Below are positions 11,055-51,993 of a DNA stretch of 55,522 nucleotides, in pieces. Numbering within the stretch: position 1 is the stretch's first letter; each line of letters starts with the position of its first letter. Under the pieces are notes generated by a model. It did not search any database. It saw only the letters and a program-made list of their open reading frames with translations, and was not told the origin of the DNA. The position numbers and the translations under genes are program-made. The stretch is from IMG/VR virus record IMGVR_UViG_3300031515_000001, positions 1-55,522 of that record; one strand, given 5' to 3'. The stretch is from a virus (lineage: Duplodnaviria; Caudoviricetes).

Positions 11055-11072
11055 AATTAAATCGATTTAATT
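11055..11072. repeat. 18-bp palindrome AATTAAATCGATTTAATT
   Basis: Perfect copy between the adaptor stop codon and the next SD. Confidence 0.95.
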
Positions 11073-11707
11073 CACAAAAGTCCTTTGTGTATTGTACTTA
11101 CCTCACTAATACTTGTATCTCGTATAAACTTCCCTTTAAAATCATTCAATGCATCTATATACATACTACGATATATCTGAAATGCCTGAGAATTATATGT
11201 CTCTGTATCTGGCATAGCAAAAGCTCTGGACATCACTCCAAGAATACATAATTCCTGATTTGGAAAATCAAAGGTACTGCTCATCGTATAAATCGGTATA
11301 TTAGTTAATAAAGCCATTAAATAATAAGAATCATCAGGTATTGGGTATATAATAAAAGTTCCTGTTGACAAATCATTTGAGTAATATGTAGGTCTTCCAG
11401 TATTAGTTGTTCCTCTAAGTTTACTTCTTATGATATTTGGTGGGCTGTAAATTAAAGGTTCTTCTCTCATATTGGTATCTTTATCATAAATATTACATTT
11501 CATAACGACCCCGTTAGTAGTGTATTCTGTAACATTCTTAACTATTGGTATAATAGAATATGCTTCGGTATATAAATTGGCACGTCTGCTGATATCTTCT
11601 ACAGTTTCATTTATTAACTGTAATAAAACTTCATCGCTCCATAAATAAGGTTCTGTAGTATCTACCAATCTTGTCCTTAATATGTCAATAAATTCAATTA
11701 TAGTCAT
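11072..11707 (-). CDS. head-tail adaptor protein
   Basis: LRTRLVD..EPYLWSDEVLLQLINE N-terminus and G.PTYY...IYPIPD typical of podovirus adaptors; position after the capsid genes. Confidence 0.7.
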   Translation of the reverse strand: MTIIEFIDILRTRLVDTTEPYLWSDEVLLQLINETVEDISRRANLYTEAYSIIPIVKNVTEYTTNGVVMKCNIYDKDTNMREEPLIYSPPNIIRSKLRGTTNTGRPTYYSNDLSTGTFIIYPIPDDSYYLMALLTNIPIYTMSSTFDFPNQELCILGVMSRAFAMPDTETYNSQAFQIYRSMYIDALNDFKGKFIRDTSISEVSTIHKGLL

Positions 11708-12063
11708 AATAATAGACCTCCTATTACCACTCCAATTAAGACGCCTATGCCTAAATTCTGTATAGCCTCAAAAAACGATTGCTTCTTTTGTTTTGATAAA
11801 TCCTGCTTTAGTTGTTTTATTTCAATATCTTGTAATTCTTTTTGCTCTTCAACAAGTTTAATTTTTTTCTTTAACAATTCATTTTGTTTTTTAAGTAGGT
11901 CAACTTCAGCTGATAATTCTTCAACTTCTTTTTCCAAGATTTTTTTCTGCTCTAATTCAACAACTGCCATTTTAGCTTGCTCTACAGACATACAAGCAAG
12001 CTCTTCAGCATAAACAAAAGAGCTTAAAAGTAATATGCTACTTATAATATATAGAAATATCAT
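11704..12063 (-). CDS. spanin-like coiled-coil protein (signal peptide plus C-terminal TM)
   Basis: Hydrophobic N- and C-termini flanking a coiled coil; last gene of the lysis cassette. Confidence 0.5.
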   Translation of the reverse strand: MIFLYIISSILLLSSFVYAEELACMSVEQAKMAVVELEQKKILEKEVEELSAEVDLLKKQNELLKKKIKLVEEQKELQDIEIKQLKQDLSKQKKQSFFEAIQNLGIGVLIGVVIGGLLL

Positions 12064-13627: not shown

Positions 13628-13789
13628 TTATTTTGTTGTTTTAATTTTTGATGACGCAGGGGTTACATCATCCCTGACTTCCTTTCTTTTCTCTTCAGGT
13701 TTTATTTCTACAAACTCATTGCCTAATCTGAAATCGTCACTTACCTCAAAGATTACACCGTCAGACAATCTCTTGACTAATTTAGCCAT
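13628..13789 (-). CDS. small protein (53 aa, not in ORF track)
   Basis: SD GGAGG at 13796-13800; MAKLVKRLSDGVIFEVSDDFRLGNEFVEIKPEEKKKEVRDDVTPASSKIKTTK. Confidence 0.7.
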   Translation of the reverse strand: MAKLVKRLSDGVIFEVSDDFRLGNEFVEIKPEEKRKEVRDDVTPASSKIKTTK

Positions 13790-13802: not shown

Positions 13803-13820
13803 AATTAAATCGATTTAATT
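13803..13820. repeat. 18-bp palindrome AATTAAATCGATTTAATT
   Basis: Perfect copy between the post-capsid hairpin and the next SD. Confidence 0.95.
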
Positions 13821-13844: not shown

Positions 13845-14792
13845 TTATGTAGCCTTCTTAGCGTATAATACACCAAATCCAGCAGGCATAATGACATCAA
13901 AATCATAAACGATTAAACCCTTCATTGCGTCAGCAAATGTATTATGAGGTCTATACCTCTCTGTCTTATTAATCTGGCTAACAAATACTAATGAGCCTTT
14001 GTAACCAAATGGAATATAGTATGCTCCATCTGTAGTTGACCTATAGAGAAGATTGGATTCAAAAATGTTAAGCTTGCCTATTTGCTTTCCAGTAAATCCA
14101 CCTTTTAGCAGAAGGCTTTTACCATCACCAGCAAATGCTGCATTTTTCAAATCAGATTTATTAATCAGATTCATAATGAGAGGAGGAAGAACTATCCATC
14201 TATCTTCATCTGGAACATCTTGTTCATCAAGAACAGAATCACAATCAATAAGATAATCAAGGACGTTGGCGGGGGTTAATGATACGGGAGTGCCAGCTGT
14301 GCCTAAATTATATGCTCTGGAACGTACTCCGGCAGTTGTTCCCTGATTTGCTGGATGAGCTTTTGTATAGATAGTAGAGAATACTTCAGAATCAATAACA
14401 ATCTTCTGTTGCTGCGCAGCATTATCCGCTAATTTATCTATCCATGATAAATCTGCCTGCTTAATATCGATATCATCTAATGCGAAATTGAAATACTTAG
14501 CTCTTTTTACTGTGAATTCAATAGCTGGACTTTCTGGGTATTCAATCTCAAGAGCCTTACCTTTCTCATAATTCTTAATTGTTACATCTGGTAGAGTTCT
14601 AATTACAACAGTATCTCCAACATTTCTAAGTTCCCCAACATAATCAGTTGTTGCTATATTAGCGATAACACTCTTGCTATAAAAACGCTCAAGAAGTTTA
14701 CCGCTAAAAAGCATTGGGATATGAGCATTACCGGGGCTACCCGGTCTTCCATACTCATAACCCGGATAACCTGTTACTCTTGGAACTGCCAT
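13845..14792 (-). CDS. major capsid protein (HK97 fold)
   Basis: IPMLFSGKLL...DYVGEL..VGDTVVI, LDEQDVPDEDRWIVLPP, FADAMKGL.VY patterns; follows the scaffold. Confidence 0.9.
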   Translation of the reverse strand: MAVPRVTGYPGYEYGRPGSPGNAHIPMLFSGKLLERFYSKSVIANIATTDYVGELRNVGDTVVIRTLPDVTIKNYEKGKALEIEYPESPAIEFTVKRAKYFNFALDDIDIKQADLSWIDKLADNAAQQQKIVIDSEVFSTIYTKAHPANQGTTAGVRSRAYNLGTAGTPVSLTPANVLDYLIDCDSVLDEQDVPDEDRWIVLPPLIMNLINKSDLKNAAFAGDGKSLLLKGGFTGKQIGKLNIFESNLLYRSTTDGAYYIPFGYKGSLVFVSQINKTERYRPHNTFADAMKGLIVYDFDVIMPAGFGVLYAKKAT

Positions 14793-22054: not shown

Positions 22055-22072
22055 AATTAAATCGATTTAATT
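22055..22072. repeat. 18-bp palindrome AATTAAATCGATTTAATT
   Basis: Perfect copy 30 bp upstream of the -35 box. Confidence 0.95.
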
Positions 22073-22431
22073 TCTCTTATTGCAGATTTTTACTAAAAGC
22101 TGCATTATATTACTAATATATGTATAGGTGGGAACGTGGAGGGAGTTTATTAGCCAAAGTTTGCCTTTTCTTATTCAGCTTTTACAAACTGGAGGGAAAT
22201 TTATAAATGCCCAGCTCTTATAAATAGCTTTCCCTATTCAGCTTTTATAACCTGAGAGGAAATTCTATATATGAATTTATACCTTATATAAATAAATGGG
22301 CGAGATTTTCCTGAATGAGGGGCTTTATGGAGAGGGAGAAAGTTGTGAGTAAGAGGGCTTTGTATAATAAGAAGGTGCCCCAGCTTTTATTTATCAGCAG
22401 GTGGAAAAAGAGAGAACTACATAGAAGTAGA

Positions 22432-22449
22432 AATTAAATCGATTTAATT
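22432..22449. repeat. 18-bp palindrome AATTAAATCGATTTAATT
   Basis: Perfect copy; extends to 24 bp (AGA...TCT). Confidence 0.95.
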
Positions 22450-22577
22450 TCTCTGTAGATTCATAGAGACGTTAAAGCACCGCCTCCGCAGACCAATAGC
22501 CCCCACCCCTTTCCCACCTACCTATATCAGATGAAATATAAAACTGTCTAAACAAACCTCGCCCCTGCAGACTTAAT

Positions 22578-22780
22578 TAAATTTATAAAAGCACCTATCC
22601 CAGTTATAAAAGTACCTTCCATTTATGAAGATTCCTTCTATTTACAGAAAGCTTAATTCTATTTATAAAATCATGTTTCATTTATAAAACTACATTCCAT
22701 TTATGAAAAGCTCATTCCATTTATGAAATTACATTCCATTTATGAAAATGGAAAATTACATTCCATTTATGAAAAGCTCA
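22578..22780. repeat. iteron-like tandem array, ~10 units mostly of 19-21 bp
   Basis: CATTCCATTTATGAAA exact at 22693, 22713, 22732, 22759, with degenerate TTCYATTTATRAA units upstream. Confidence 0.85.
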
Positions 22781-22846
22781 TAGAAAAAGACAAATGCTGA
22801 TTAATAAAACACCCCCCTATTCCCATCTACGGGTAGGCATATAAGA

Positions 22847-22864
22847 AATTAAATCGATTTAATT
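22847..22864. repeat. 18-bp palindrome AATTAAATCGATTTAATT
   Basis: Perfect copy. Confidence 0.95.
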
Positions 22865-23236: not shown

Positions 23237-23259
23237 TTTAAACCTCCTACTTATTTTTA

Positions 23260-23299
23260 GACCGCCAATGGCAGTCAACCTTTATGTGAAGTCAAGAAA
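23260..23299 (-). promoter_or_regulatory. conserved leader motif, copy 1 (upstream element plus hairpin)
   Basis: TTTCTTGACTTCACATAAA then GACTGCC-ATT-GGCGGTC on the coding strand. Confidence 0.7.
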
Positions 23300-23582
23300 T
23301 TCAACCGCAGTAAACTTTTTTTGTAAATAACGTGTGTGGACAAAAGAAGGCTAATAAAAGTCTGTTTGTGCTTCGCACACGACATGACACGGTTAAAAGA
23401 TACACAAAAACATATCGTTTATATCGTTATGAGAAAACAAAAAATAAAAAGCCGAAACGATAGGCTATAACGATTATACGATAGAAATTAAATCGAGCTA
23501 TTAACAGGATGTAACGATAGGCATGATTGAATTTACGCGGTATGATATGAGTTAAATTCGGTAGGTATAACGATAGGTTGTG

Positions 23583-23600
23583 AATTAAATCGATTTAATT
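23583..23600. repeat. 18-bp palindrome AATTAAATCGATTTAATT
   Basis: Perfect copy. Confidence 0.95.
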
Positions 23601-23687: not shown

Positions 23688-23705
23688 AATTAAATCGATT
23701 TAATT
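23688..23705. repeat. 18-bp palindrome AATTAAATCGATTTAATT
   Basis: Perfect copy; extends to a 32-bp perfect palindrome at 23681-23712. Confidence 0.95.
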
Positions 23706-23731: not shown

Positions 23732-23749
23732 AATTAAATCGATTTAATT
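23732..23749. repeat. 18-bp palindrome AATTAAATCGATTTAATT
   Basis: Perfect copy; extends to 24 bp (CCG...CGG); 4 nt after the stop at 23754. Confidence 0.95.
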
Positions 23750-23753
23750 CGGC

Positions 23754-27245: not shown

Positions 27246-27263
27246 AATTAAATCGATTTAATT
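27246..27263. repeat. 18-bp palindrome AATTAAATCGATTTAATT
   Basis: Perfect copy just downstream of terS. Confidence 0.95.
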
Positions 27264-33659: not shown

Positions 33660-34863
33660 AAGGTTCCTCCAACAAATCTTCAAATTCTTCCATTAATCCT
33701 TCTTTCTCTTCAGAGCCAGATGTCATCTCTATTTGGTCAAAATTCATATTTATCCAATCCCAATGAACAGGAATTCTAACGTCCGATATTCCTTCCCTAT
33801 TTGCAATCAAATGCATAACTCTTGATACACCAGTACTGTCTGGAGTAACTGCTACAACTACAGAAGCTATCTGCCCTATTGCATCTGATAAAGCAATATG
33901 CTGTAAATCAGGTTCTTTTGCAGAGGAAGCACTTCTGTTTAACTGGTAAGAGCAAACTATTGATGTGCTTGTTCTCATTGCTATTTGTTTTAACTCCTCA
34001 ACAATAGCCTTCGCCTTTTCCCATTCTGAATTAAACTTCTGCCCATATTTAAGCAAATAAGCGCCATCAACAAAAACAACAGCAGGCTCATAAACTTTGA
34101 TTAAAGAGTATAGTTCTAACAAGTTTTTAAGCCCTGCACCATTTACATAATATAGATTCAATTTCAATTTCTCCAGCTTCTTTTCTACAAAAGAGCTTAT
34201 GATTCTTTTCTGGTCAGTAAATACATTACTCTTAAATCGCAATCCCAGCAGTCTCATAAGTATCTGCCGCTCCCCCATTTCAAGAGATACAAACATACAT
34301 GGAACTGTATCTAATAACTTATTCATTGAATTGAGCATGTACATTGTCTTTCCCATCTTTGTTCTGGCAACATATACAAATATATCAGTAGGTAAATACC
34401 CACCCGTTAGATTGTCAATGATAGGATATCCTGTTGGATATCCCATTGTTCCGACGAGTTTCTTCTTTCTTACTTCTTGTATGATAGATTTAACTCTGCC
34501 TACTATTTCATCAGGCTTAATGATATGCTCTTTATTTCCTTCAGATAGTAATTTAGTCAATCGCTTATATAATTTAATCAAATCCTGAGATGGATTATCA
34601 AAGGGCATCTCCTTGAATTCAAGTATCACATTCTGTATAGTTCTTTCGTATATGACTTCAAGCCACCATTCTATAGGATAATCTTGATATCCCTCAGGAG
34701 CTGTTCTTGGAGGAGGCAAACTTTTATATTTCTTAAGGAACTTCCGTATCCTATTATATTCATAATACTCCTCCTCAGTAAGTTGGTCCTCAGGAATCCT
34801 ACTTAGGGCTTCAATATCCTTATCAATAAGTATTTTATGTAATAAACATAATCCAGCCAGCAT
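33652..34863 (-). CDS. dnaB: DnaB-like replicative helicase
   Basis: ARTKMGKT, SLEM, VFVDGAYL, QLNR, SDAIGQ. Confidence 0.9.
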   Translation of the reverse strand: MLAGLCLLHKILIDKDIEALSRIPEDQLTEEEYYEYNRIRKFLKKYKSLPPPRTAPEGYQDYPIEWWLEVIYERTIQNVILEFKEMPFDNPSQDLIKLYKRLTKLLSEGNKEHIIKPDEIVGRVKSIIQEVRKKKLVGTMGYPTGYPIIDNLTGGYLPTDIFVYVARTKMGKTMYMLNSMNKLLDTVPCMFVSLEMGERQILMRLLGLRFKSNVFTDQKRIISSFVEKKLEKLKLNLYYVNGAGLKNLLELYSLIKVYEPAVVFVDGAYLLKYGQKFNSEWEKAKAIVEELKQIAMRTSTSIVCSYQLNRSASSAKEPDLQHIALSDAIGQIASVVVAVTPDSTGVSRVMHLIANREGISDVRIPVHWDWINMNFDQIEMTSGSEEKEGLMEEFEDLLEEPYD

Positions 34864-35555
34864 TAGACTTTTATCCTTTTCTTACATACTTGAGGTATTT
34901 CTTTGCTTTTTTTCAGCACTTCTGAACGAAGAGCCTCAATTATGTCATTATCAGTTGCATGATTCATAATAAAATCTGAACATATATAAGTCAAAGCTAC
35001 ATTCAAATTATCTGAAAGAGCCAATTCCTGAGCAATATGCATAGCTTCTTTAACTATTTCTGCTTGCTCATCAAGTAATTTGAATTTCAGAGTAAGTACT
35101 TTCTCAATCTCTTCTCCCTTAGCATATTTTACTTTTTCCTTTCTTACAAAATCTTGCAGCTCTTCCCTACTTAACTGCTTAGCTTTACTAAGCGTAGTCT
35201 GTAGGGATTCAATAGGAAAGTTCTCAGTCAGCAAAAGAGAGGCTACTTCTTTAAATTTTGTCCAACCAATACCAATTAATTCCTCCTTAGAAATTGCATA
35301 AGTCTCAATCGCCTGCCCCATCTTTACTCTATACATGAACATTTCATAAGATAGTCCTGACGGAGCAAGTTCTGCTTTTACATAATCTTTACAGGATTCA
35401 TATCCTTTGACTTTCCATTCTTGAGATGAGTATATCTCGTATGCTATTGTGGCGATTTCATACCAAGTCTCAGACTCTCTTCTTAATAAAGCTCTTAGTT
35501 TTTCAGTATTGTCTGGTTGTGGCGCCTGTGTCTTAGTAATTTGTTTTTGTTTCAT
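34863..35555 (-). CDS. putative helical DNA-binding protein (DUF3102/partition-protein-like)
   Basis: WYEIA...EI...W...GYES..DYV..EL...IGWTK pattern; weak recognition. Confidence 0.4.
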   Translation of the reverse strand: MKQKQITKTQAPQPDNTEKLRALLRRESETWYEIATIAYEIYSSQEWKVKGYESCKDYVKAELAPSGLSYEMFMYRVKMGQAIETYAISKEELIGIGWTKFKEVASLLLTENFPIESLQTTLSKAKQLSREELQDFVRKEKVKYAKGEEIEKVLTLKFKLLDEQAEIVKEAMHIAQELALSDNLNVALTYICSDFIMNHATDNDIIEALRSEVLKKSKEIPQVCKKRIKV

Positions 35556-35740: not shown

Positions 35741-35758
35741 AATTAAATCGATTTAATT
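35741..35758. repeat. 18-bp palindrome AATTAAATCGATTTAATT
   Basis: Perfect copy forming the last codons (IKSI-stop) of 35743..36066. Confidence 0.95.
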
Positions 35759-38788: not shown

Positions 38789-38806
38789 AATTAAATCGAT
38801 TTAATT
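38789..38806. repeat. 18-bp palindrome AATTAAATCGATTTAATT
   Basis: Perfect copy between the stop at 38808 and the SD of the AAA gene. Confidence 0.95.
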
Positions 38807-43935: not shown

Positions 43936-43953
43936 AATTAAATCGATTTAATT
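43936..43953. repeat. 18-bp palindrome AATTAAATCGATTTAATT
   Basis: Perfect copy 4 nt after the stop of the 2668-aa gene. Confidence 0.95.
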
Positions 43954-43957: not shown

Positions 43958-46900
43958 TTATATCAGGTTGACCGCTTGTAGGGTTCTATCTATTCTTGGG
44001 GCTAGTGCTTGTTTTAGAGTATCACTTTCTATAAACGGAATAAAGCCCTTATATTTAATAACGGCTTTATTATAGTCTCTTATTGATTCTATTATATCTT
44101 TATAATCTTCTGGATTTTCTCCAGCGAGGCGGATTTTTCTATATATTTTATCTCTCCATTTCTCATACCAAGAACTTAATCTAATTGCGTAGAACTGTCT
44201 ATCTTGTATATCTGCTAATCTTTTTGGTCTAAATCCAAAGGCTCTTTCTACAGCTTCTGGTAATGTCAATTTAAATTGTTCTCCTGTCTCAGGTTCTATG
44301 ACAGGTTTCCCAGCTTTAGTGAGTAATCCTCTATTATACAAGCTTATAGCTTGGAATGGCATAGCCCAACCAATAGGTAGAGCATACGATAAAGTTCCGA
44401 GAATATCTCCATAACTAAATTGTTCTTTTGCTTTTAGTGTTCTTGTTATTTCCTGAGCGTGAACTCCTAATAAGAAATTACCTAAATCATCAAAAGATAA
44501 ACCTTTAGGTACAGGTAATTCCATCTTTAAAGCAGGAGACATATCAGCTAACCCCAATGCAGCTGGAATACCTTGTATTATAGCTGTCGCAACTGGTTCA
44601 TCAAATAAATCTCTAAATGTATTTCTAATTTTTGCTCTATATGGGAAACCAACTATTCTCTCAGCGATATCAAGTAGGTCATCTATAAATGGTATAGCAG
44701 ATACTCCACCAAAAACAGCAAAGGCAGCTAAAGATATAAATACCTTATCAAAATTCCTTTTTCCTATATTATGTAAAAGCCATGATATATAATTAAAGGT
44801 ATAAGATTTAAGTGTAGTAGGTATAGCAAGTAAAGCTCCTGCTGTTGTTCTTGGTTGCATCCAGTATGGTCTGTTAGCTCTGCTATAATCTCCAAATACA
44901 TCTTCAGTTACTTTGGCTGCAAATCTAATGCTTGTTTCATAATCCAGCCCCTTTGCCCTTGCTAATCTAAAAGCAAGCAGTCCACCAACTGTTCTTGTAT
45001 AATATTCTGAATACTTAAATGGTAACATAGTCCAATCAAATATCTTCTGGAATGTTCTGCCAAATACTTTCAGGTTTTCTTCTCTAATCATGTTAATGAA
45101 CTGGCTTTCTATAATTCCTTCAGTTATAAGATTCCTTAAAGCCATTATATCACTTTTATAAGGTATATCTTCTTTTCTAATATTTGCTATATCAAAATCT
45201 TCTTTGAAGTAACCATTTTTCCACCATTTAACTAAATCTTTAGAAGCCTTTGCTATATCAACTGTAGCCTTTATACTTTCTGGAATAGATTTTAGAATTT
45301 GCTCAGTTATTTTACCTTCACCCCTGAGTATAAATCCAGAAGGTTTATCCATAAGCATAGCTAATCGTTCAGCAGGCATAGTATAATAATTTTGCAGTTC
45401 TGGAACAAGCTGGGTTAACATCTGAGTTAGATTAATTACTACAGATGATATTCTTCCAGATAAATAGTAAAAGGCACCTATCATTCTAAGTTTATAAGCA
45501 TATCTTGCTATATCATTATAAGGAGCTGTTACGCCTTCAAGAGTTTTCTTAAGAAGGTTAAGCCTTTCTGGATTTGATTCTAATAACTCTTTATTCTTAT
45601 CTCTATAATCCATATATTCTGTTATGACTTTTTTGTGGGCTATGCTATTTGACATTTGTGTAAAGTACCTGCTTAACACCTCCTCTGGGTCTCTTTCATA
45701 ACCTCTAATAATCTTACCAAATTCTTCTGGCAGTCTATGTCTCTGGAACATTCTTCTTGCTGCTGCGTAATGTGTTTCAGCAAATACTTTATCCATAGCA
45801 TTACTTAACTGGCTTAATACTGCTTCTGATTCTGGGCTGTCTATGTGTTTGGCAAGTGCGAAAATTATTTCTTGTAAGTGTGTATAAGATAAGTTAGACA
45901 AAGCAGATTTTTCAATTGGCAGTTTTTCTCCTTTTACTACAATAAAATCAAGATTATTCTTAAATGCTTTTGCTTTTATTATTGGATTATTATGTATATC
46001 ACCTTCAGTTATCTCAAATTTAAAACCAACATTTTTAAGAACTTGCGTCATTTTATCAGTTATATTATTTAAATCAGCCCGCTCCTTTTCAGCGAACTTT
46101 GATGGATTTACTTCGTGATAGAATACTTCATATAATACAGGACTTTTCTGCCCTGATATTGGGTCTACGATTTCGCCCCTTTGGTACAATTTAATGTAGT
46201 AATTTCCACCCTTTCTTGTAAATGGCTTGTAGTAGATATTTGATAATTCATCTAATGAATGCGCACTCTTTTCTATGAAATTCAGCAGATGAGAAAATGG
46301 ATAAATATCCTTCTTGTATTCATTCATAATCTTGGATGACAGTTCTTTCTGTAGATTTAATATTGCTCTTTTATCTATGGCATCTTTTGTAATCTCTCCA
46401 AGTATCTTAGTTATATATGGATTAAATGTTGTATTAATAAATTCATTAAACTCGTCTGGTTTAAAATCACTTTTACCTCTCTCTATATTTCTCTTTATAG
46501 ATGAAATAGTTGATTTAACAAACATACCATACAGGGCATTTATCATTTCCCTAAATATCAAATCCGTTCCTTTCTTTGTTTCCGTATACACTCTATACAT
46601 TTTATCTATAGAGGTTGGGTCTGTAACTCCATATCTATATGCTACTTCTGAAAACCTGTCTTTAGGTAAAAAATCCATTATAATAGCACATTCGTTCTCT
46701 ATATCACTATATTTGTCATATAAACCCTCAGTCTTCAATTCTTTTAAAGCTACGAATACTTTGTTATAGGCTGCTTGTAATAATCTGTTTGCATATTGCC
46801 CTCCTCTATGAACTATATCATAAAATTCCATAAGCCATTCATTTCTTCTTGGCATATCTAATATCGTCTTGAGTTTATCTATAGTTGATATTCTTACTTC

Positions 46901-49900
46901 TTTTGATGCTCTCATAATATCCTTGGCAGAAGTTAATACTCCAATTAGCATGTCTGTGAACTTACCTGACTTGCTTTGTATTCTATTAAATTCAGTTTCA
47001 ACTCTATCTATCTTAGTATTAGCATCTCTAAACATAGCATAGGATTTATCTCCGAGCAGTGTTAAAGCATCATTCATATATCCAATTGGTACTCTTTCTA
47101 TATTACCTTGTCCCTCTTTTAAATAACTGCCTGCCTCTATCTTTGCAAACATATCATTTACAGAGGCAAATCCCAAACCACGTATAAAATTAGTTATCTT
47201 CTCTATAAAGTTATTAAATGATTCTATTATTCTCTTCATAAAGGAGGGGGGTTCTTGTCTTTCAGATAGATATCTGCCAAATGCCTCAGCTATACCTTCT
47301 TCAGTTTTATATTTAGCAAGAGCTAATTTGTAGTCAGACTCTTTTATTTTTCCAGCCTTAGCTAATATATGAATCACTTCATGTCCAACTGTTGTAATTA
47401 CATCTGGATGATTTTCTACTAATCCAATAAAACCTTCCTTATTGTTAGCCAGCCAGTAAGAAAAACCAGCCACAGTTTTATCATGATTTTTTGTAAGTTC
47501 TTTATATAGTTCATGTTTTGGAGATACAAAGGCATACTTAATATCTATATTAAATGGTGATAATATCTGAGTAAGCATTCTATGTATAACAAGATGGTTT
47601 ACAGCTGTGTTGTTCAGCAAGTGAGGCACTTCAGATAATGTTCTAAATTCAATATCTGGAATTTCATCCAGTTTTGGTATGATTTTTTGTAATTGCTCAG
47701 ATGTAATGACTGTATCATATATTTCCCTAATTTCATTAAGGGTTTTTGGAGAAACATTCCTGTTTTGGGCTTGTTCTAATAAATCTATATATCTGGAATA
47801 AATAATATCTTCTGGAGCGGTTATTTTTGCCCCTTTTGTTTCTCTTCTCCAATATAGATTCCATGCTTTCTGGATTGTTCTTAGCTCTTTTATTAATGGT
47901 GTAAGTTTTTCATTCTGCTCATTCTGAGATAGTTTGGTATTTCTAAGCACTGCATACAAGTTCCTAATCAATGCATCAGCTTTTTCATACAGCTTTATAT
48001 GTCCTTCTTTAACTTCTTTTGTTAGAGTTATTTCTGTATCTTTGTCATCTGTTAAAGCCTTCTGTAGTTCGGACACCATCATAGTCTCAGCAATTTCCAT
48101 TTTTCTGGGCATATCTTTGAGCAGGTTGTATGTAGATATAAGGTTTCTTAAGTTTGACTCAAGAGTAGGAACTGATTCAAATTGTCTATTGTATTCCATC
48201 ATTATATCTTCAAGTTTCACCTTATTATTTAACAGCTTTTCTATATCAGTTACTTTTATATATTTCTTTATTTCTGAATATAAACGATTATATTTATATT
48301 CAATAGAATCAACAGAGACATTTTTTATGGTATCTACTATTCTGTTATAAGTTATAGGGTCATTTATTATACCATCAGCAATTGTATAAGCAATATATTT
48401 TTCAGGATTCTTGATAAACTCTTTTATTTCATTAATAAACTCCCATTTATTAGAAATCTTATTAATAAGAATATCTCCTTTAAAGATTCTATTCAGCTGT
48501 ATATAAGTAGTACCTCTTATTTGTTTATTTAAATCTATACCAGAATTCTCATCTGTGTTTTTCATATATTCAACAATTACATCAAATAATTTCTGCTGTT
48601 GTCCCTTTCTACCAGCTACATCACTACTTATATATTTTCCAAGCTCTATAAAAGGGCTATCAGCAGACATTATTGACTTGTATGTAGTTGTATCCATTAT
48701 TAATGGAATACTACCAACCTTTCTATCCATAATTGTTGGAATAAATACAATAACTTTATTCGTCTCAGCTAAAGGAACAACATTTAAGTAAAGATTACTT
48801 ACTCTATCAGTTGGCAGAATATTTTCAAAAAATTTAGTTTCAAGTGCCACTCTATAATCAAATCCAAGCATTGAATTGATTATATCTGCTATTTCAGGAT
48901 GTCTTTGCATTATCTTTGTATTTAATTCAGATGTGTAATCTTCAATCGCTTCTTTGAAAGCACGAGCTTTCTCTATTCCAGATATCCGTCCAAGCCATGA
49001 AGAAATGGCTCCGATAGTATAGTAAAAAGGATTTCTATTATAAAGCTCAGCTATATCTGTTATACCAAAGTAATCTTTTAATACTGAGTGGGTAGCAATC
49101 TTTGATAGAATGCGTTTTATCTCTGGAGCAAATTCTCCCCACATATGGTAAGGCAAACTCATCCAGTTGCCTTTGTCTGTTTTCTGGTTAAATAATACCT
49201 GTCTTAATAGTTCAATTTCATCTTTTGTCAGTTTCTGTCTTACTGTTTTTGCAAAATCTTTTATTTCCTTATTGACTTTGCCAGCCTTCTTTTTTGAGTC
49301 AAGTAATACAATCTCTTTTGTTAAGTTATATAGATTAGGAGCCAATCGTGAAAGTTCAAAATTTAGATTGAATTCCCACGTTGAAGTGCTTTCTTTTGTT
49401 ATTCTTGGTTTATCTATTTCTTCTATTTTTTCTTGTGGCTGTAGTGATTTAAATTCTTTTTCTCTTGTTATGTTGCTTTCAATAGCTGTTCTAAATATAG
49501 AATCTATTGGCTCCAATACTCCATTATTTAATAAATGGATAGACAATCCCTCTGTAGTTCCTTTCAATCCAATAATATCCTGTAAGGTATTGGGTTCTGA
49601 TAGTTTTATCTCTTCCTCTGAGTGCTGTTGTCTAACCTTATTACCAATATCTTCTATAACTGATTTGCTCTCAGGCACTTGTACAGCTTTTTTGCTCAGA
49701 ACTTTATTCACAGTCTCATTTCTCCATTTTGTTACTTCAGTAATATTTATGTAAGGTTTATTGTCTTTGGTTACAATGAAAAGTCTCTTTTTCAAAGCTG
49801 GGTTTATAACTGGTACCTTACCTGTATAAGCTTTGACATCTGCCAATGCTTTACCAAGAGTAGTGATATCAGCATCACTTAAGTTTAAAATAAGTTGCTT

Positions 49901-51964
49901 TACTGATTTACTTTGTGGTTCAAGTAAGTCAGAATGTTCTGCTTGTAAACTTTCTCTTGTTATCTTATAAATTTCTTGTCTTTGCGGAATAGCTAACCGT
50001 TCTGTCATCTCTTGGAGTGTTTCTTTAAATGTATCTCCTTTTTCTTCTTTTTCTTCTTTCTTGCTTACAGGCGGTTCAATTACTTCTGGTTCAGTTTCAT
50101 GTTCTTCCTCAACTTGTTTTTTAGCTTTCTCTTTTTCCGATTCACGTCTGACTTTCTCTATTAAATCTTCTTCTACAACTCTGTATTCTTTTGGTGTAAC
50201 CAATTTGCCGTTATCATTTACTACAAGTTTCCCAAGTTTATCCAATATTTCAGTTTTTAATTTTGGGTCTTGATTGGCTTCTTTAGCTGTAATCTTTTTG
50301 TCAGGCATCAATTGTTTATATTTATTAATATCTTCTCGTGTTATATTATAAGAATCAATATTAGTAAATACTTCATTGCCTGTCTCATCGAGTATTTTAA
50401 CTCCAAGTTTATTTATATCACTAAGTAATTCTATCTTTTTTTGCTCATCAGCATTAATATCAGATAATATCTTATCTATTCTTTCTCTCTGGGCAATTGC
50501 TGTTGGCAGGATTATTCCTTGTTCCTCTGGTATTCTTTCCAATACCGAAGACTTTTCCTCTATAGTTTTTATTTCTAATGGCTTCTGTCTCGCAACATAT
50601 TCTTCTTCTGCTTTCTTTAGTATTGCTTCTCCTGCTGTGAACTTCTTTTCAAAATTTAATATAGAATTAGCTACCGCATCCGCTGTTATATATTCTCCTG
50701 AATCTATAAGTATCTTACTTTTAATTCCATTTTCATCTTTTACAGTATCATATATATCTACCTTGTATCCTATTTCATCACCAACCTTAGCTCTGGAAAT
50801 GTCATAAGTGAATCTTTCGCCTTCTATAGTGGTTGAGGTTGATTGGCGAATATAAGCTGCTAAATCATTTGTCTTCATATATGATAAATCAAGCCGTCTA
50901 TTTAGCTCAGAATCCCTTTCCTCAGGCTGTTGTCCTTCTACTTTCTTGACCTCTTCAGGTTTTATCTCTTCAACTTTCGATGTTACTTCCGCAGCTTCAA
51001 GTTTTGTTTCTTCTGGTTTTACTGTTTCCGGGATGATTTCAAATGGTGATTCAGGTTTCTCTACTTCTGGCGCTGGTTTATATTCTTTTGCTTTAAGTGA
51101 TTCTGCTTCTGTTCTCACTTTTTCAGGCTTTGCTGTTTCTGTAAGAGCTTCTGGTATAGCTGTTTCTTGTTTTGGTATAGGAATCCCTTTTCCTCTTGCG
51201 ACTAAACCTTTAGAAACCGCAGCGCCAAGACCAGCTAAACCTCCTCCTACCAAAGCTTCAGCAGCAGTTTCTTTCCAGCGTTCAAGTTTACCTGCTATTA
51301 TGTCTGCGGGGCTAATAGTTCCTGTCAATCCATACTGCTGACCTGCTTCCATAGCTCCAGTTACTAAAGGAAAAGATACAGCTCCCGTTGCCATAGTTGG
51401 TAATATTTTGGTAGGTCTAAATAATGTACCAGCCGGAATAGCTGTAGCACCTCCGGCTATAACCCCTCCAATAAGTGCTCGTGATAAATCTTTTTCACCT
51501 TCTGGTTGCTGCTCATATATTTGCCCGGCTGTGGAGGCACCAATAACTGTTGGAATAGCAGTCCTACCAATTGTACCAGCTGCTTTGGCACCAAATAAGG
51601 GCACGCTGGCTCCTTCAGTTATAAGTGCACCAGCAATAAAAGGCAGTATATTCCCTATTACTCTGCCTACTGCTCCCCTAAAAGTTTGTTCCTCTGGTGG
51701 AGCTAATTTTTGTTCCCATTCTTTTAGAAAATCAGGAGTTAGATTAGTACCAGTAATTGCTCCGGCTAAGCCAGTTAATCCAGTAGCAGTACCTACTACT
51801 CCTTGTGCGAGTCCACGTCCTAACCCTGTAAAAAATCCTTCAGGTGGTTTATATGTTTTTAGATATTCATACACACTTTCTGGGGGAACCCCCTGCATTA
51901 ATAAAGGGAGGATATTTACATTTTTTTCTTTGGCTAACTTAGCAAGTTCTTTATAATCTACCAA
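43958..51964 (-). CDS. large polyvalent-type internal virion/ejection protein
   Basis: 2668 aa; Gly/Ala-rich hydrophobic N-terminus, Glu/Lys/Pro linker, GHEVIH...EEGIAE zincin motif, helical C-terminus with hydrophobic segment; SD GGAGG before TTG. Confidence 0.75.
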   Translation of the reverse strand: MVDYKELAKLAKEKNVNILPLLMQGVPPESVYEYLKTYKPPEGFFTGLGRGLAQGVVGTATGLTGLAGAITGTNLTPDFLKEWEQKLAPPEEQTFRGAVGRVIGNILPFIAGALITEGASVPLFGAKAAGTIGRTAIPTVIGASTAGQIYEQQPEGEKDLSRALIGGVIAGGATAIPAGTLFRPTKILPTMATGAVSFPLVTGAMEAGQQYGLTGTISPADIIAGKLERWKETAAEALVGGGLAGLGAAVSKGLVARGKGIPIPKQETAIPEALTETAKPEKVRTEAESLKAKEYKPAPEVEKPESPFEIIPETVKPEETKLEAAEVTSKVEEIKPEEVKKVEGQQPEERDSELNRRLDLSYMKTNDLAAYIRQSTSTTIEGERFTYDISRAKVGDEIGYKVDIYDTVKDENGIKSKILIDSGEYITADAVANSILNFEKKFTAGEAILKKAEEEYVARQKPLEIKTIEEKSSVLERIPEEQGIILPTAIAQRERIDKILSDINADEQKKIELLSDINKLGVKILDETGNEVFTNIDSYNITREDINKYKQLMPDKKITAKEANQDPKLKTEILDKLGKLVVNDNGKLVTPKEYRVVEEDLIEKVRRESEKEKAKKQVEEEHETEPEVIEPPVSKKEEKEEKGDTFKETLQEMTERLAIPQRQEIYKITRESLQAEHSDLLEPQSKSVKQLILNLSDADITTLGKALADVKAYTGKVPVINPALKKRLFIVTKDNKPYINITEVTKWRNETVNKVLSKKAVQVPESKSVIEDIGNKVRQQHSEEEIKLSEPNTLQDIIGLKGTTEGLSIHLLNNGVLEPIDSIFRTAIESNITREKEFKSLQPQEKIEEIDKPRITKESTSTWEFNLNFELSRLAPNLYNLTKEIVLLDSKKKAGKVNKEIKDFAKTVRQKLTKDEIELLRQVLFNQKTDKGNWMSLPYHMWGEFAPEIKRILSKIATHSVLKDYFGITDIAELYNRNPFYYTIGAISSWLGRISGIEKARAFKEAIEDYTSELNTKIMQRHPEIADIINSMLGFDYRVALETKFFENILPTDRVSNLYLNVVPLAETNKVIVFIPTIMDRKVGSIPLIMDTTTYKSIMSADSPFIELGKYISSDVAGRKGQQQKLFDVIVEYMKNTDENSGIDLNKQIRGTTYIQLNRIFKGDILINKISNKWEFINEIKEFIKNPEKYIAYTIADGIINDPITYNRIVDTIKNVSVDSIEYKYNRLYSEIKKYIKVTDIEKLLNNKVKLEDIMMEYNRQFESVPTLESNLRNLISTYNLLKDMPRKMEIAETMMVSELQKALTDDKDTEITLTKEVKEGHIKLYEKADALIRNLYAVLRNTKLSQNEQNEKLTPLIKELRTIQKAWNLYWRRETKGAKITAPEDIIYSRYIDLLEQAQNRNVSPKTLNEIREIYDTVITSEQLQKIIPKLDEIPDIEFRTLSEVPHLLNNTAVNHLVIHRMLTQILSPFNIDIKYAFVSPKHELYKELTKNHDKTVAGFSYWLANNKEGFIGLVENHPDVITTVGHEVIHILAKAGKIKESDYKLALAKYKTEEGIAEAFGRYLSERQEPPSFMKRIIESFNNFIEKITNFIRGLGFASVNDMFAKIEAGSYLKEGQGNIERVPIGYMNDALTLLGDKSYAMFRDANTKIDRVETEFNRIQSKSGKFTDMLIGVLTSAKDIMRASKEVRISTIDKLKTILDMPRRNEWLMEFYDIVHRGGQYANRLLQAAYNKVFVALKELKTEGLYDKYSDIENECAIIMDFLPKDRFSEVAYRYGVTDPTSIDKMYRVYTETKKGTDLIFREMINALYGMFVKSTISSIKRNIERGKSDFKPDEFNEFINTTFNPYITKILGEITKDAIDKRAILNLQKELSSKIMNEYKKDIYPFSHLLNFIEKSAHSLDELSNIYYKPFTRKGGNYYIKLYQRGEIVDPISGQKSPVLYEVFYHEVNPSKFAEKERADLNNITDKMTQVLKNVGFKFEITEGDIHNNPIIKAKAFKNNLDFIVVKGEKLPIEKSALSNLSYTHLQEIIFALAKHIDSPESEAVLSQLSNAMDKVFAETHYAAARRMFQRHRLPEEFGKIIRGYERDPEEVLSRYFTQMSNSIAHKKVITEYMDYRDKNKELLESNPERLNLLKKTLEGVTAPYNDIARYAYKLRMIGAFYYLSGRISSVVINLTQMLTQLVPELQNYYTMPAERLAMLMDKPSGFILRGEGKITEQILKSIPESIKATVDIAKASKDLVKWWKNGYFKEDFDIANIRKEDIPYKSDIMALRNLITEGIIESQFINMIREENLKVFGRTFQKIFDWTMLPFKYSEYYTRTVGGLLAFRLARAKGLDYETSIRFAAKVTEDVFGDYSRANRPYWMQPRTTAGALLAIPTTLKSYTFNYISWLLHNIGKRNFDKVFISLAAFAVFGGVSAIPFIDDLLDIAERIVGFPYRAKIRNTFRDLFDEPVATAIIQGIPAALGLADMSPALKMELPVPKGLSFDDLGNFLLGVHAQEITRTLKAKEQFSYGDILGTLSYALPIGWAMPFQAISLYNRGLLTKAGKPVIEPETGEQFKLTLPEAVERAFGFRPKRLADIQDRQFYAIRLSSWYEKWRDKIYRKIRLAGENPEDYKDIIESIRDYNKAVIKYKGFIPFIESDTLKQALAPRIDRTLQAVNLI

Positions 51965-51975
51965 TAATACCTCCG

Positions 51976-51993
51976 AATTAAATCGATTTAATT
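51976..51993. repeat. 18-bp palindrome AATTAAATCGATTTAATT
   Basis: Perfect copy overlapping the upstream stop and adjacent to the SD of the 2668-aa gene. Confidence 0.95.

What the first reader, a model, noticed from the sequence alone, without database searches (positions are those of the whole stretch)
11055..51993. Genome-wide network of a perfect 18-bp palindrome (AATTAAATCGATTTAATT) at gene junctions
Seen: 13 exact copies starting at 11055, 13803, 22055, 22432, 22847, 23583, 23688, 23732, 27246, 35741, 38789, 43936 and 51976, plus a half site near 23486 and two variants at 244-299. A rough chance expectation at about two-thirds AT is far below one copy. Five copies sit between a stop codon and the next Shine-Dalgarno, three follow a stop codon closely, and six cluster in the control region. 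Flanks differ between copies but often extend the symmetry (G..C, AGA..TCT, CCG..CGG, TTTTATG..CATAAAA), so dyad symmetry itself appears selected. Inference: a binding site for a dimeric protein used across early, replication and late genes (parS/matS-like organiser, transcription roadblock, packaging or ejection mark), or an RNA processing site. Most copies do not overlap recognisable promoters, unlike a classical operator. Candidate binders: HTH proteins at 21702, 42968, 20988 and 34863.
Basis: partly seen in the sequence, partly recalled or inferred. Interest (0 to 1): 0.85.

Follow-up and report, generated by a model that had tools for sequence, protein, structure and literature searches.

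The report
Phage-wide palindromic operator network
A hot-spring phage carries 13 identical copies of an 18-base palindrome between its genes, most likely docking sites for one of its own paired DNA-binding proteins; such phage-wide palindromes are already known from other phages but remain unexplained.

Summary
There are 13 exact copies of AATTAAATCGATTTAATT, against 0 in 100 shuffles. Twelve are intergenic and one overlaps an ORF end.

Selection keeps the motif. At six orthologous junctions of an 83-86% identical relative, all 108 motif positions are identical, against 278 of 335 flank positions.

A distant relative, G006 (major capsid protein 48% identical), has 8 copies of AATGAAAACGTTTTCATT. 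This is the same 18-bp frame, changed symmetrically at positions 4/15 and 8/11, and it lies in the same stop-palindrome-ribosome site-start context.

No bacterial genome holds a multi-copy network.

My best reading (0.5) is a set of double-stranded DNA sites for a symmetric phage-encoded dimer that punctuates a nearly one-directional genome. The best candidate binder is gp230 (34863-35555). It is predicted to form a homodimer, and its fold is weakly ParB/KorB-like. The binder is not proven: comparable networks also occur in phages without gp230.

Rival readings are an RNA hairpin, replication sites, a promoter, and a recombination linker.

This is a new member of a known, unexplained kind (Cluster O dyad repeats). 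This scan has noted like arrays in other phages (e.g. e1-3274482, e1-222521).

The parts
11055..11072 (.). Exact palindrome copy. It overlaps the TGA stop of ORF 11072-11707 and lies 16 nt before the ATG of ORF 10784-11038.
   Evidence: Exact at the orthologous junction in G001.
13803..13820 (.). Exact copy after the major capsid gene (13845-14792) and its GC-rich hairpin, 13 nt before the ATG of ORF 13628-13789.
   Evidence: Orthologous copy exact in G001 and in fragments L012, L017, L099 and L100. Bridged by RNA-library contigs in 4 of 4 runs.
22055..22072 (.). Exact copy 30 nt upstream of the -35 hexamer of the consensus promoter at 22024-21995 (minus strand).
   Evidence: Orthologous copy exact in G001.
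22432..22449 (.). Exact copy on the promoter-side flank of the iteron-like array.
   Evidence: G001 has an exact copy in the corresponding region, although the flanks cannot be aligned.
22847..22864 (.). Exact copy 60 nt downstream of the strong terminator at 22947-22924, on the other flank of the iteron-like array.
   Evidence: G001 has the 1-mismatch variant here.
23583..23600 (.). Exact copy, inner left element of the nested foldback at 23555-23753.
   Evidence: G001 has the 1-mismatch variant.
23688..23705 (.). Exact copy, inner right element of the foldback. Its flanks extend the dyad by 7 bp.
23732..23749 (.). Exact copy 4 nt after the stop of ORF 23754-24536.
   Evidence: No counterpart at the aligned place in G001.
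27246..27263 (.). Exact copy 24 nt after the stop of the small-terminase-like ORF 27288-27731. It marks the border between an 86.7% and a 72.1% identical segment relative to G001.
35741..35758 (.). Exact copy that encodes the last residues and the stop of ORF 35743-36066, 12 nt before the ATG of ORF 35552-35728. That ORF is followed by gp230.
38789..38806 (.). Exact copy 16 nt before the ATG of the AAA ATPase gene 37201-38772.
43936..43953 (.). Exact copy between convergent genes, 4 nt after the stop of the 2668-aa gene. It is followed by a run of eight T on the minus strand.
   Evidence: The G001 contig ends here, so conservation could not be judged.
51976..51993 (.). Exact copy that supplies the AA of the TAA stop of ORF 51992-52735 and lies 11 nt before the TTG start of the 2668-aa gene.
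   Evidence: G006 has its own palindrome 15 nt before the start of its giant gene.
244..261 (.). Variant copy with 3 mismatches. It pairs with the variant at 282-299 to form a long hairpin just upstream of the GTG start at 239.
   Evidence: G001 keeps the pair as 1-mismatch variants.
282..299 (.). Variant copy with 2 mismatches.
23486..23495 (.). Isolated half site (AATTAAATCG).
34863..35555 (-). gp230, the best candidate for the protein that reads the palindrome. Its stop overlaps the start of the DnaB-like helicase gene.
   Evidence: 92% identical in G001 and 41% in G006. 661 family members. AlphaFold model with pLDDT 92.7. Middling structural likeness to ParB/KorB DNA-binding domains. Predicted symmetric homodimer.
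22578..22780 (.). Iteron-like direct repeats (units such as TTTTCATAAATGGAATGTAA) enclosed by the copies at 22432 and 22847. This is context for the cluster of six copies and may be an origin of replication.
Evidence: No function was tested.

Best explanation
The 18-bp palindrome is really a 20-24 bp dyad with weaker outer positions, G/AGA..C/TCT. I read it as a binding site on double-stranded DNA for a symmetric dimer encoded by the phage.

Nearly all genes run one way: minus strand 39411 to 305, continuing from 55520 to 43958. Only four consensus host-type promoters are present. The sites sit exactly at module borders: the early unit, the AAA ATPase unit, replication, accessory genes, the origin-like region, head, tail, and the giant virion protein.

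I infer that the bound dimers act as adjustable barriers or insulators to RNA polymerase reading through from module to module, in the manner of stoperators. The six clustered copies would organise the origin-like control region.

The best candidate reader is gp230 (34863-35555), a helical HTH-type protein of the replication module. Its own operon begins with the site at 35741, which would give negative feedback.

Shown: the copies, their selection, their placement, and a co-varying counterpart in a second lineage. Inferred: DNA binding rather than RNA binding, the identity of the binder, and the barrier mechanism.
For: 1. Exactness and selection.
- 13 copies against 0 expected.
- 108 of 108 motif positions are identical at six orthologous junctions of G001, against 278 of 335 flank positions.
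- Fragments L008, L012, L016, L017, L099 and L100 carry exact copies at all 8 covered junctions. These fragments may be the same lineage as G001.
- Control-region copies persist where the flanks can no longer be aligned.

2. Two-fold symmetry runs through the centre. The only variation seen, 6 sites in G001 and 2 in the window, is at the central positions 8/11.

3. A second lineage.
- G006 is 63,183 bp and complete, with major capsid protein 48%, large terminase 50% and PolA 40% identical.
- It has 4 exact and 4 one-mismatch copies of AATGAAAACGTTTTCATT, and 0 for the reversed control.
- This shares 14 of 18 positions with the window motif, and both half sites changed alike.
- 5 of its 8 copies lie directly before a ribosome site and start codon, including the start of the giant gene, as in the window.

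4. Sites where an RNA role is unlikely.
- 22055 lies upstream of its promoter.
- 22432 and 22847 lie between a strong terminator and that promoter.
- 43936 lies between convergent genes.

5. The RNA hairpin is weak.
- The core has dG 0.0 at 37 C. With 8-nt flanks the range is -1.4 to -11.6 kcal/mol at 37 C.
- 10 of 13 are unfolded at 70 C.
- All 11 runs that hold half or more of the stretch are labelled hot-spring or microbial-mat metagenomes.
- The flanks show no strand bias: 14 G.U against 11 A.C pairs.

6. The binder.
- Among the window's candidate DNA-binding proteins, only gp230 (41%), gp131 (35%) and the small-terminase-like gp147 (36%) have a G006 homologue.
- gp88, gp96, gp241, gp108, sigma-like gp203, gp93, gp87 and gp58 have none, even at E<=1.
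- gp230 is the most conserved candidate against G001, at 92%.
- Complex prediction on two copies gave score 0.78, with the best of 3 controls at 0.00. That mark was reached by 20 of 30 proteins solved as pairs of one chain and by 1 of 23 solved as single chains. The runs agree in at least 90% of contacts, and the partner's pLDDT is at least 78. The model supports dimerisation but does not show it.
- VIA-align places residues 26-151 on ParB-parS 6s6h_B (Z 6.4, rmsd 3.9, 102 aligned), Spo0J 1vz0_A (Z 5.2, 89 aligned), KorB 8qa8_A (Z 4.9, 99 aligned) and KorB-operator 1r71_A (Z 4.6, 96 aligned).

7. Three of four cultured phages tested that encode a gp230-like domain carry their own genome-wide palindromes: RHph_I4 45 copies, DLP_3 25, RcZahn 8.
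Against: - No binding was tested, and the host is unknown.
- The structural likeness of gp230 to ParB/KorB is in the range the tool calls a possibly common helical arrangement (Z under 8). Foldseek found nothing at E<=0.001, and a family profile found no ParB or KorB chain by sequence.
- gp230 has no Pfam domain, so no ParB N-terminal CTPase domain was detected.
- The co-occurrence test is inconclusive. Of four portal-relatives without a gp230 homologue (profile 0 of 4; positive control 5 of 5), RHph_TM3_14A has 15 copies and Aeromonas phage 1233 has 22 copies of other palindromes. Slicky01 has 4 and CRP-212 has none. The gp230-bearing Vibrio phage KarBoss has only 3 copies.
- gp230 could instead be an origin-binding protein or helicase loader.
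- The flanks extend the dyad (P=0.005), and at 11055 and 13803 the extension pairs with the ribosome-binding site. Five of 13 sites in the window and 5 of 8 in G006 abut a ribosome site. G006 sites carry A-run and T-run flanks that look terminator-like. All of this fits an RNA-level role as well.
- A barrier that stopped most transcription at 13803 and 11055 is not supported, because RNA-library contigs bridge both sites. This is contigs only, so it is weak evidence.
Confidence: 0.5

Rival explanations
1. An RNA-level element. On the mRNA, the palindrome with its flanks forms a hairpin next to the ribosome-binding site. The hairpin would act as a weak terminator or attenuator, a translation gate by sequestering the ribosome site, or the target of an RNA-binding protein or nuclease.
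For: - 5 of 13 window sites and 5 of 8 G006 sites lie directly before a ribosome-binding site.
- The extended hairpins at 11055 (-7.7 kcal/mol) and 13803 (-11.1 kcal/mol) pair with the ribosome site.
- The flanks extend the dyad (P=0.005).
- The changes between lineages at positions 4/15 and 8/11 keep base pairing.
- G006 sites have A-run and T-run flanks, and 43936 is followed by T8.
- The variants at 244 and 282 together form a long hairpin (note e1-6299026).
Against: - The core hairpin has dG 0.0 at 37 C, and 10 of 13 flanked versions are unfolded at 70 C, in a phage found in hot-spring samples.
- At least 4 sites lie where little or no mRNA is expected: 22055, 22432, 22847 and 43936.
- All 18 positions are fixed, including the loop's own self-complementarity, which a hairpin does not need.
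- There is no G.U against A.C strand bias in the flanks (14 against 11).
- The flank excess is confined to 3 positions.
- No Rfam family matches.
- RNA-library contigs run across 13803 in 4 of 4 runs and across 11055 in 1 run (weak evidence).
Confidence: 0.15
2. The same kind of DNA site, but serving replication or genome organisation rather than transcription. gp230 would be an origin-binding protein or helicase loader. The easily melted AT-only palindromes would mark the main origin (six copies around the iterons) plus secondary loading or organising sites.
For: - Six of 13 copies lie within 1.7 kb around an iteron-like array.
- The gp230 stop overlaps the start of the DnaB-like helicase gene.
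- In cultured phages the gp230-like domain sits among RecA, RuvC, Cas4-exonuclease and AAA ATPase genes.
- The motif is 16 of 18 A/T.
Against: - Seven copies sit singly and exactly at stop-to-ribosome-site junctions spread over the genome. Secondary origins would not need that placement.
- In G006 the gp230 homologue is not next to the helicase gene.
- A RepO-like winged-helix protein (42968-43693) is a more usual candidate for reading the iterons.
Confidence: 0.15
3. A binding site for a host protein, such as a global regulator or nucleoid protein, that the phage recruits or soaks up.
For: - The host is unknown, so its regulators cannot be checked.
- The central CG with AT-rich arms resembles the general layout of several bacterial operator classes (recalled, not tested).
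- Earlier notes of this scan report such cases in other phages (e1-1957743, e1-5922309).
Against: - The exact 18-mer occurs in 61 scattered stretches of diverse genomes, essentially one copy each, among 185,579 species representatives. None of those stretches is related to the phage.
- The motif changed symmetrically between two phage lineages of equal G+C content.
Confidence: 0.08
4. Recombination linkers or a selfish repeat. Identical short sequences at module borders would promote exchange of modules between co-infecting relatives, or would spread by themselves.
For: - Palindromes border segments of different divergence from G001: 27264-35740 is 86.7% identical, 23750-27245 is 72.1%, and 22073-22846 cannot be aligned.
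- BLAST segments end at the copies at 22055, 22847 and 23583.
Against: - 18 bp is very short for homologous exchange.
- The identity step at 27246 is gradual over about 200 bp.
- There are no target-site duplications and no transposase.
- Perfect conservation across about 15% sequence divergence argues for a function under selection.
- Module borders are also where regulatory sites are expected.
Confidence: 0.07
5. A promoter element for phage-specific transcription, read either by the sigma-like gp203 or as a hairpin promoter for a virion polymerase.
For: - The all-or-none identity of copies recalls the promoters of phage RNA polymerases (recalled).
- Modules begin right after the copies.
- The phage encodes a protein with a Sigma70 region 2 domain.
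Against: - A perfect palindrome gives no direction.
- G006 keeps a related network but has no gp203 homologue, even at E<=1.
- The giant protein has no polymerase hit in PHROGs, Pfam or PDB sequences. Its nearest named Atlas clusters carry the LPD39, LPD38 and LPD1 domains, with scores of 0.92-0.97.
- Several copies have no gene downstream.
Confidence: 0.05

Closest known systems
17-bp dyad repeats of Cluster O mycobacteriophages (TGTTCGG-N3-CCGAACA; PMC4351075, passages read)
   Same: - Invariant inverted arms, with many copies spread through the whole genome.
- Mostly at or near gene borders, and not tied to promoters.
- The phage is not obviously temperate.
- The authors predict a dimeric DNA-binding protein, and the function is unknown.
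   Different: - 13 copies here against more than 30 there.
- No spacer here: an 18-bp continuous palindrome with a central CG.
- Here only 1 of 13 copies touches coding sequence, against about one third there.
- Unrelated phages and an unrelated sequence, so this is a resemblance of kind, not homology.
Stoperators of Cluster A mycobacteriophages (L5 gp71-type repressors; PMC9283540, abstract and passages read)
   Same: More than twenty identical short sites in short intergenic spaces across the genome, which stop elongating RNA polymerase when bound. This is the mechanism I infer here.
   Different: - Stoperators are 13-bp asymmetric sites bound by a monomer, and they work only in one orientation.
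- They belong to the immunity system of temperate phages.
- Here the site is a perfect palindrome, and no integrase or repressor was found in the 54 of 69 ORFs scanned.
KorB-OB of plasmid RK2 and ParB-parS (structures 1r71, 8qa8, 6s6h and 1vz0 listed; the biology is recalled, not read here)
   Same: - Short palindromes dispersed over a replicon and clustered near its origin.
- Read by a dimeric HTH protein that acts as a global regulator.
- The gp230 model aligns over about 100 residues with these DNA-binding domains.
   Different: - Z scores of only 4.6-6.4.
- No sequence-level relation.
- No ParB N-terminal domain and no ParA/IncC/KorA partner detected.
SPBRE repeats bound by MrpR in Bacillus prophage SPbeta (PMC10516654, passages read)
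   Same: A repeated element found by sequence analysis in intergenic regions. Twenty-four years later it was shown by ChAP-seq to be the site of one master regulator.
   Different: - SPBRE lies in promoter regions of about 10 genes of a temperate phage.
- Its reader is a recombinase-fold repressor.
Start-associated sequences of Cluster K mycobacteriophages (mentioned in PMC4351075; details recalled)
   Same: A conserved short motif immediately upstream of start codons of many genes.
   Different: Only 5 of 13 copies here are start-associated, and the start-associated sequences are asymmetric.

Membership tests
Dispersed dyad-symmetric repeats of phage genomes (Cluster O type; a kind, not a homologous family) | Invariant inverted arms in many copies throughout the genome | tested here: met
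   13 exact copies over 41 kb of a 55.5-kb genome. G001 has 13 copies and G006 has 8.
Dispersed dyad-symmetric repeats of phage genomes (Cluster O type; a kind, not a homologous family) | Most copies not associated with promoters | tested here: met
   None of the four consensus promoters overlaps a copy. The nearest copy is 30 nt upstream of a -35 hexamer.
Dispersed dyad-symmetric repeats of phage genomes (Cluster O type; a kind, not a homologous family) | Conserved among related phages | tested here: met
   108 of 108 motif positions identical at six orthologous junctions. A related motif occurs in G006.
Stoperator/operator system of Cluster A mycobacteriophages | Asymmetric site whose orientation follows the direction of transcription | tested here: not met
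   The site is a perfect palindrome, and its flanks show no strand bias.
Stoperator/operator system of Cluster A mycobacteriophages | Sites in short intergenic spaces across the genome | tested here: met
Stoperator/operator system of Cluster A mycobacteriophages | Immunity repressor of a temperate phage | tested here: inconclusive
   No integrase or repressor family was found in the 54 of 69 ORFs scanned. Fifteen small ORFs were not scanned.
ParB-parS / KorB-OB | Reader protein with the ParB-type HTH DNA-binding domain | tested here: inconclusive
   VIA-align gives Z 4.6-6.4 over about 90-100 residues to four ParB/KorB entries. Foldseek and the sequence profile give nothing significant.
   gp230 has no Pfam family at E<=0.01. 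None of the 64 family members scanned matches a ParB family.
ParB-parS / KorB-OB | Dimeric reader | tested here: inconclusive
   Prediction only: score 0.78 against best control 0.00. That mark was reached by 20 of 30 solved homomers and 1 of 23 solved single chains.
Intrinsic terminators / RNase III-type processing hairpins | Stable stem (G+C-rich with a U tract, or about 20 bp of duplex) | tested here: not met
   The core hairpin has dG 0.0 at 37 C. Only 1 of 13 copies is followed by a T run. The terminator scan lists none of the copies. The variant pair at 244/282 could form a long stem.
Host repeat or host operator | Many copies in a bacterial genome | tested here: not met
   61 scattered stretches in diverse taxa, with single copies per locus. 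None is related to the phage. Degenerate host sites would escape an exact search.

The most novel reading that the evidence does not exclude
A previously unnamed family of dimeric HTH proteins (gp230-like) reads lineage-specific palindromes that punctuate whole phage genomes.

- The family has 661 members among cluster representatives at 50% identity.
- It has no Pfam domain.
- Its DNA-binding core is ParB/KorB-like, without the CTPase domain.

The protein and its code co-evolve: AATTAAAT-CG in the window, AATGAAAA-CG in G006, and TGCAAY-N2 in the cultured phages DLP_3, RcZahn and RHph_I4. The complexes would partition one-directional lytic genomes into separately throttled transcription or replication modules. 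That would be a general regulatory layer of lytic phages which the classical models lack.
Probability: 0.25. Interest if true: 0.7.

Novelty: new member of a known kind. Interest (0 to 1): 0.5.

Why it matters
Phage-wide dyad repeats have been described for a decade (Cluster O) without a reader protein or a function. This scan keeps meeting them.

In my own small sample, 7 of 10 genomes checked carried such an array of 8 or more copies. G001 is a close relative of the window, and the rest of the sample is small and hand-picked.

This case adds three things that make the question testable:
- Proof of purifying selection on every base of the site.
- A second lineage in which both half sites changed together while the anatomy stayed the same.
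- A short list of three candidate readers (gp230, gp131, gp147), one of which has relatives in cultured phages (DLP_3, RcZahn, RHph_I4) that carry their own arrays.

If the sites are barriers to read-through, they would explain how a phage with four promoters and about 50 kb of co-directional genes schedules its modules.

Tried and rejected
- Host repeat: rejected.
- Chance: rejected.
- Seven unrelated viral contigs hold single copies of the motif. They show no similarity to the window by tblastx, so I treat them as chance.
None of the 79 new loci encodes a gp230 homologue.
- Distant major-capsid relatives L024-L037 (38-42% identical, G+C 44-66%) show no repeated palindrome of 12 bp or more in the parts held. 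Only fragments were available.
- The metagenome scan with the major capsid protein gave no relatives of intermediate distance.
- megablast of the control region against cultured phages gave no match.
- Rfam and the tRNA scan found nothing.
- PDB sequence searches with the giant protein, gp241, gp230, gp88 and gp187 gave nothing meaningful.
- gp88 and gp96 have only 3 and 2 database relatives.
- The sigma-promoter idea was dropped because G006 lacks the sigma-like gene.
- The virion-polymerase hairpin-promoter idea was dropped.
- The co-occurrence of gp230 with palindrome arrays did not separate cases from controls, so I do not use it as support beyond noting it.
- My ORF-mask test of whether the cultured phages' palindromes are intergenic was uninformative in the G+C-rich genomes.
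- RNA-library contigs cannot show ends or strands. Parts of the window without contig cover mean nothing.
- Literature searches for a description of this motif or of arrays in DLP_3 found none. Supplements are closed and were not seen.
- I did not check whether L012, L017, L099 and L100 are independent of G001.
Full report
**The genome**

The window is a complete IMG/VR virus record of 55,522 bp with a CheckV estimate of 91%. It encodes a large terminase, portal and major capsid protein and tail genes.

It has its own replication set: family A DNA polymerase, DnaB-like helicase, primase, a second helicase, a UvsX/RecA-like recombinase and a Cas4-like exonuclease. It also encodes an AAA ATPase and a protein with a Sigma70 region 2 domain.

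A 2668-aa protein has nearest named Atlas clusters carrying the LPD39, LPD38 and LPD1 domains. No integrase or repressor family appeared in the 54 of 69 ORFs scanned.

Almost all genes are on the minus strand. Only 39544-43693 runs the other way. The portal protein is 22-30% identical to those of Rhizobium, Roseobacter, Pelagibacter and Aeromonas podovirus-like phages.

All 11 public runs that hold half or more of a 9.5-kb stretch are labelled hot-spring or microbial-mat metagenomes.

**The observation**

None occurred in 100 shuffles. Only two further sites appear within three mismatches, and there is one isolated half site.

Intergenic DNA is 6.4% of the window, yet 12 copies lie in it. The thirteenth (35741) forms the last codons and the stop of an ORF.

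Read in the direction of the genes:
- Five copies lie 11-16 nt before a start codon and abut its ribosome-binding site.
- Three follow a stop codon within 4-24 nt.
- Six lie in a 1.8-kb, largely non-coding region.

That region contains, in gene order:
- a nested foldback with three copies;
- a small isolated gene (23236-22946) ending in a strong terminator;
- one copy;
- an array of about ten iteron-like direct repeats;
- two more copies;
- a 12-of-12 consensus promoter in front of the operon that leads to the packaging and head genes.

**Selection**

The relative G001 is 44.5 kb, collinear, and 83-86% identical. It has 7 exact and 6 one-mismatch copies. Every variant is changed at central position 8 or 11.

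At the six junctions that align cleanly, the motif is identical in 108 of 108 positions. The 30 nt on either side agree in 278 of 335 aligned positions. At 83% identity, 108 unchanged positions would occur with probability about 2e-9.

In the control region the flanks can hardly be aligned, yet the copies remain. Six shorter fragments from other samples carry exact copies at all 8 junctions they cover.

The motif is not borrowed from a host. Among one genome per 185,579 prokaryote species, the exact 18-mer occurs in 61 scattered stretches with one copy per stretch. None is related to the phage.

**A second lineage**

A search with close gp230 relatives brought in G006, a complete 63,183-bp phage with terminal repeats. 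Its identities to the window are:

| Protein | Identity to window |
|---|---|
| Major capsid protein | 48% |
| Large terminase | 50% |
| Portal | 43% |
| PolA | 40% |

G006 has the same G+C content, 0.34. It carries 4 exact and 4 one-mismatch copies of AATGAAAACGTTTTCATT, with 0 for the reversed control.

This is the same 18-bp frame with a central CG. It differs from the window's motif at positions 4 and 8 and at their mirror positions 15 and 11.

- Five of the eight copies lie directly before a ribosome site and start codon. One of these precedes the giant gene, the same junction as the window's copy at 51976.
- One copy lies in a repeat-rich intergenic region.
- The two inside ORFs are one-mismatch versions.

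The network is therefore a trait of a wider group, and the code drifts symmetrically. A symmetric dimer co-evolving with its site would give that pattern. So would a hairpin keeping its pairs.

**DNA or RNA**

Several points favour double-stranded DNA:
- The symmetry runs through the centre, which a hairpin loop does not need.
- Four sites lie where little transcription is expected. One is upstream of its promoter, two lie between a strong terminator and that promoter, and one lies between convergent genes.
- The bare hairpin has no predicted stability at 37 C. With flanks, 10 of 13 are unfolded at 70 C.
- Flank pairs show no bias towards G.U on the mRNA strand (14 against 11).
It is more simply read as the outer part of a 20-24 bp site.

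Other points keep the RNA reading alive:
- The adjacency to ribosome sites in both lineages.
- The pairing of flanks with the ribosome site at 11055 and 13803.
- The A-run and T-run flanks in G006.

Contigs from four RNA libraries run across the copy at 13803, and one runs across 11055. This argues weakly against efficient termination or cleavage there. Contigs cannot show transcripts, and DNA may be present in such libraries.

**The reader protein**

The window offers many small putative DNA-binding proteins:
- gp88, with an HTH-like N-terminus judged by eye;
- gp187;
- gp241, whose winged helix matches RepO-like PHROG families;
- gp108, with a weak STIV B116-like match;
- gp96, which sits inside the control region;
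- gp230.

The second lineage acts as a filter. Only gp230 (41%), gp131 (35%) and the small-terminase-like gp147 (36%) have homologues in G006. The others give nothing, even at E<=1.

gp230 is also the most conserved candidate against G001, at 92%. gp96 is only 55% identical.

gp230 belongs to a family with 661 representatives and no Pfam domain. Its model is confident, with pLDDT 92.7.

Foldseek finds nothing significant. VIA-align puts residues 26-151 on four ParB/KorB DNA-binding domains at Z 4.6-6.4. These are the only long multi-helix matches in the list, but they fall within the range the tool warns may be a common helical arrangement. A profile search of PDB sequences finds no such chain.

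Two copies are predicted to form a symmetric dimer. The score is 0.78 with the best control at 0.00. That mark was reached by 20 of 30 solved homomers and by 1 of 23 solved single chains. The runs agree in at least 90% of contacts, and pLDDT is at least 78. This supports dimerisation but does not show it.

**A prediction test that did not discriminate**

gp230-like domains occur in cultured phages. I scanned four that have the domain and four portal-relatives that lack it. The family profile found 0 of 4 controls and 5 of 5 positive controls.

| Phage | gp230-like domain | Best repeated palindrome | Copies |
|---|---|---|---|
| RHph_I4 | yes | TGCAAC-N2-GTTGCA | 45 |
| DLP_3 | yes | TGCAAT-N2-ATTGCA | 25 |
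| RcZahn | yes | TGCAAT-N2-ATTGCA | 8 |
| KarBoss | yes | ATTGCA-N6-TGCAAT | 3 |
| RHph_TM3_14A | no | GTTACC-N6-GGTAAC | 15 |
| Aeromonas phage 1233 | no | CGGACA-N2-TGTCCG | 22 |
| Slicky01 | no | CTTACA-N3-TGTAAG | 4 |
| CRP-212 | no | none | 0 |

Palindrome arrays are therefore common with and without gp230. The family cannot be their only reader, and co-occurrence proves nothing here.

The putative recognition helix differs between the AT-palindrome group (SYEMFMYRVKMG) and the TGCAAY group (YRKAxYLxxIY). That is compatible with the idea but involves too few independent lineages to count.

**Mechanism proposed**

Only four consensus host-type promoters are present: 39446, 39485, 37204 and 22024. 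About 50 kb of genes run in one direction. The sites fall at the borders of functional modules.

Segments between sites differ in their divergence from G001, at 86.7%, 72.1% and unalignable.

I infer that dimers bound at the sites limit read-through from one module to the next. The site at 35741, which heads the operon containing gp230, would give feedback. This is the logic shown for stoperators, but with a symmetric site and in a phage with no sign of lysogeny.

A replication role for the same complexes is the closest rival, for two reasons: the sites cluster around the iterons, and gp230 is coupled to the helicase gene.

**Comparison and novelty**

The closest described thing is the 17-bp dyad repeat of Cluster O mycobacteriophages. 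It has invariant arms, more than 30 copies and a predicted dimeric reader. It is not tied to promoters, and its function is unknown.

SPBRE/MrpR shows that such repeats can turn out to be the sites of one master regulator.

This scan has already reported like arrays in other phages. Some of those reports propose ParB/KorB-like readers.

The present case is a new member of that kind, not a new kind. Its added value is the demonstration of selection, the co-varying second lineage and a short candidate list.

Noticed in passing
whole window and G001: Strong avoidance of short palindromic restriction-type sites. Observed against Markov-expected counts are GATC 9 against 146, GGCC 2 against 68, and CTAG 8 against 127. 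CpG observed/expected is 0.45. In G001, TCGA is 16 against 46, and six palindrome copies have lost their central TCGA.
   Followed up: partly
window 22578-22780: About ten iteron-like direct repeats (units such as TTTTCATAAATGGAATGTAA) lie between two palindrome copies. This stretch cannot be aligned with G001. It may be an origin of replication.
   Followed up: partly
window 27126-27167, 25977-26018, about 23262-23300 (minus strand): Three copies of a roughly 40-nt element, TTTCTC..C..CA.AAA....AGACTGCC-TTTGG-CAGT, lie upstream of three accessory transcription units (family D15). It may be a phage-specific promoter plus a leader hairpin.
   Followed up: no
window 39446-39417 (-), 39485-39514 (+), 37204-37175 (-), 22024-21995 (-): Four near-perfect TTGACA-18-TATAAT promoters, all with an 18-nt spacer. 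The overall count of promoter-like sites is not above that of shuffles.
   Followed up: no
window 3-239 and 54366-55520: The ORFs that run off both ends share 117-nt repeats at 74-78% identity (families D2, D5). The record is probably a permuted, nearly complete circle cut inside one repeat-containing gene.
   Followed up: no
cultured phages MN988552 (RHph_I4), MT110073 (DLP_3), MW677529 (RcZahn), MN988472 (RHph_TM3_14A), OR359403 (Aeromonas phage 1233): Each carries its own genome-wide palindrome, spaced every few kb. The counts are 45x TGCAAC-N2-GTTGCA, 25x and 8x TGCAAT-N2-ATTGCA, 15x GTTACC-N6-GGTAAC, and 22x CGGACA-N2-TGTCCG. Shuffles gave 3 or fewer. My searches found no paper that describes them.
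   Followed up: partly
window 23045-23260 (gene 22946-23236): The small isolated gene inside the control region is covered by RNA-library contigs in two runs. Their contig depths are similar to those over the capsid gene. Contig depth cannot rank genes.
   Followed up: no
window 43958-51964: The nearest named Atlas clusters of the 2668-aa protein carry the LPD39, LPD38 and LPD1 domains, with scores of 0.92-0.97. G006 has a 2276-aa counterpart that is 24% identical over 758 residues.
   Followed up: partly
genome loci L048, L055, L057, L072, L084, L098: Single copies of the 18-mer lie at what looks like one conserved locus of Ferruginibacter/Chitinophagaceae genomes, with shared flanks. They are unrelated to the phage.
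   Followed up: no
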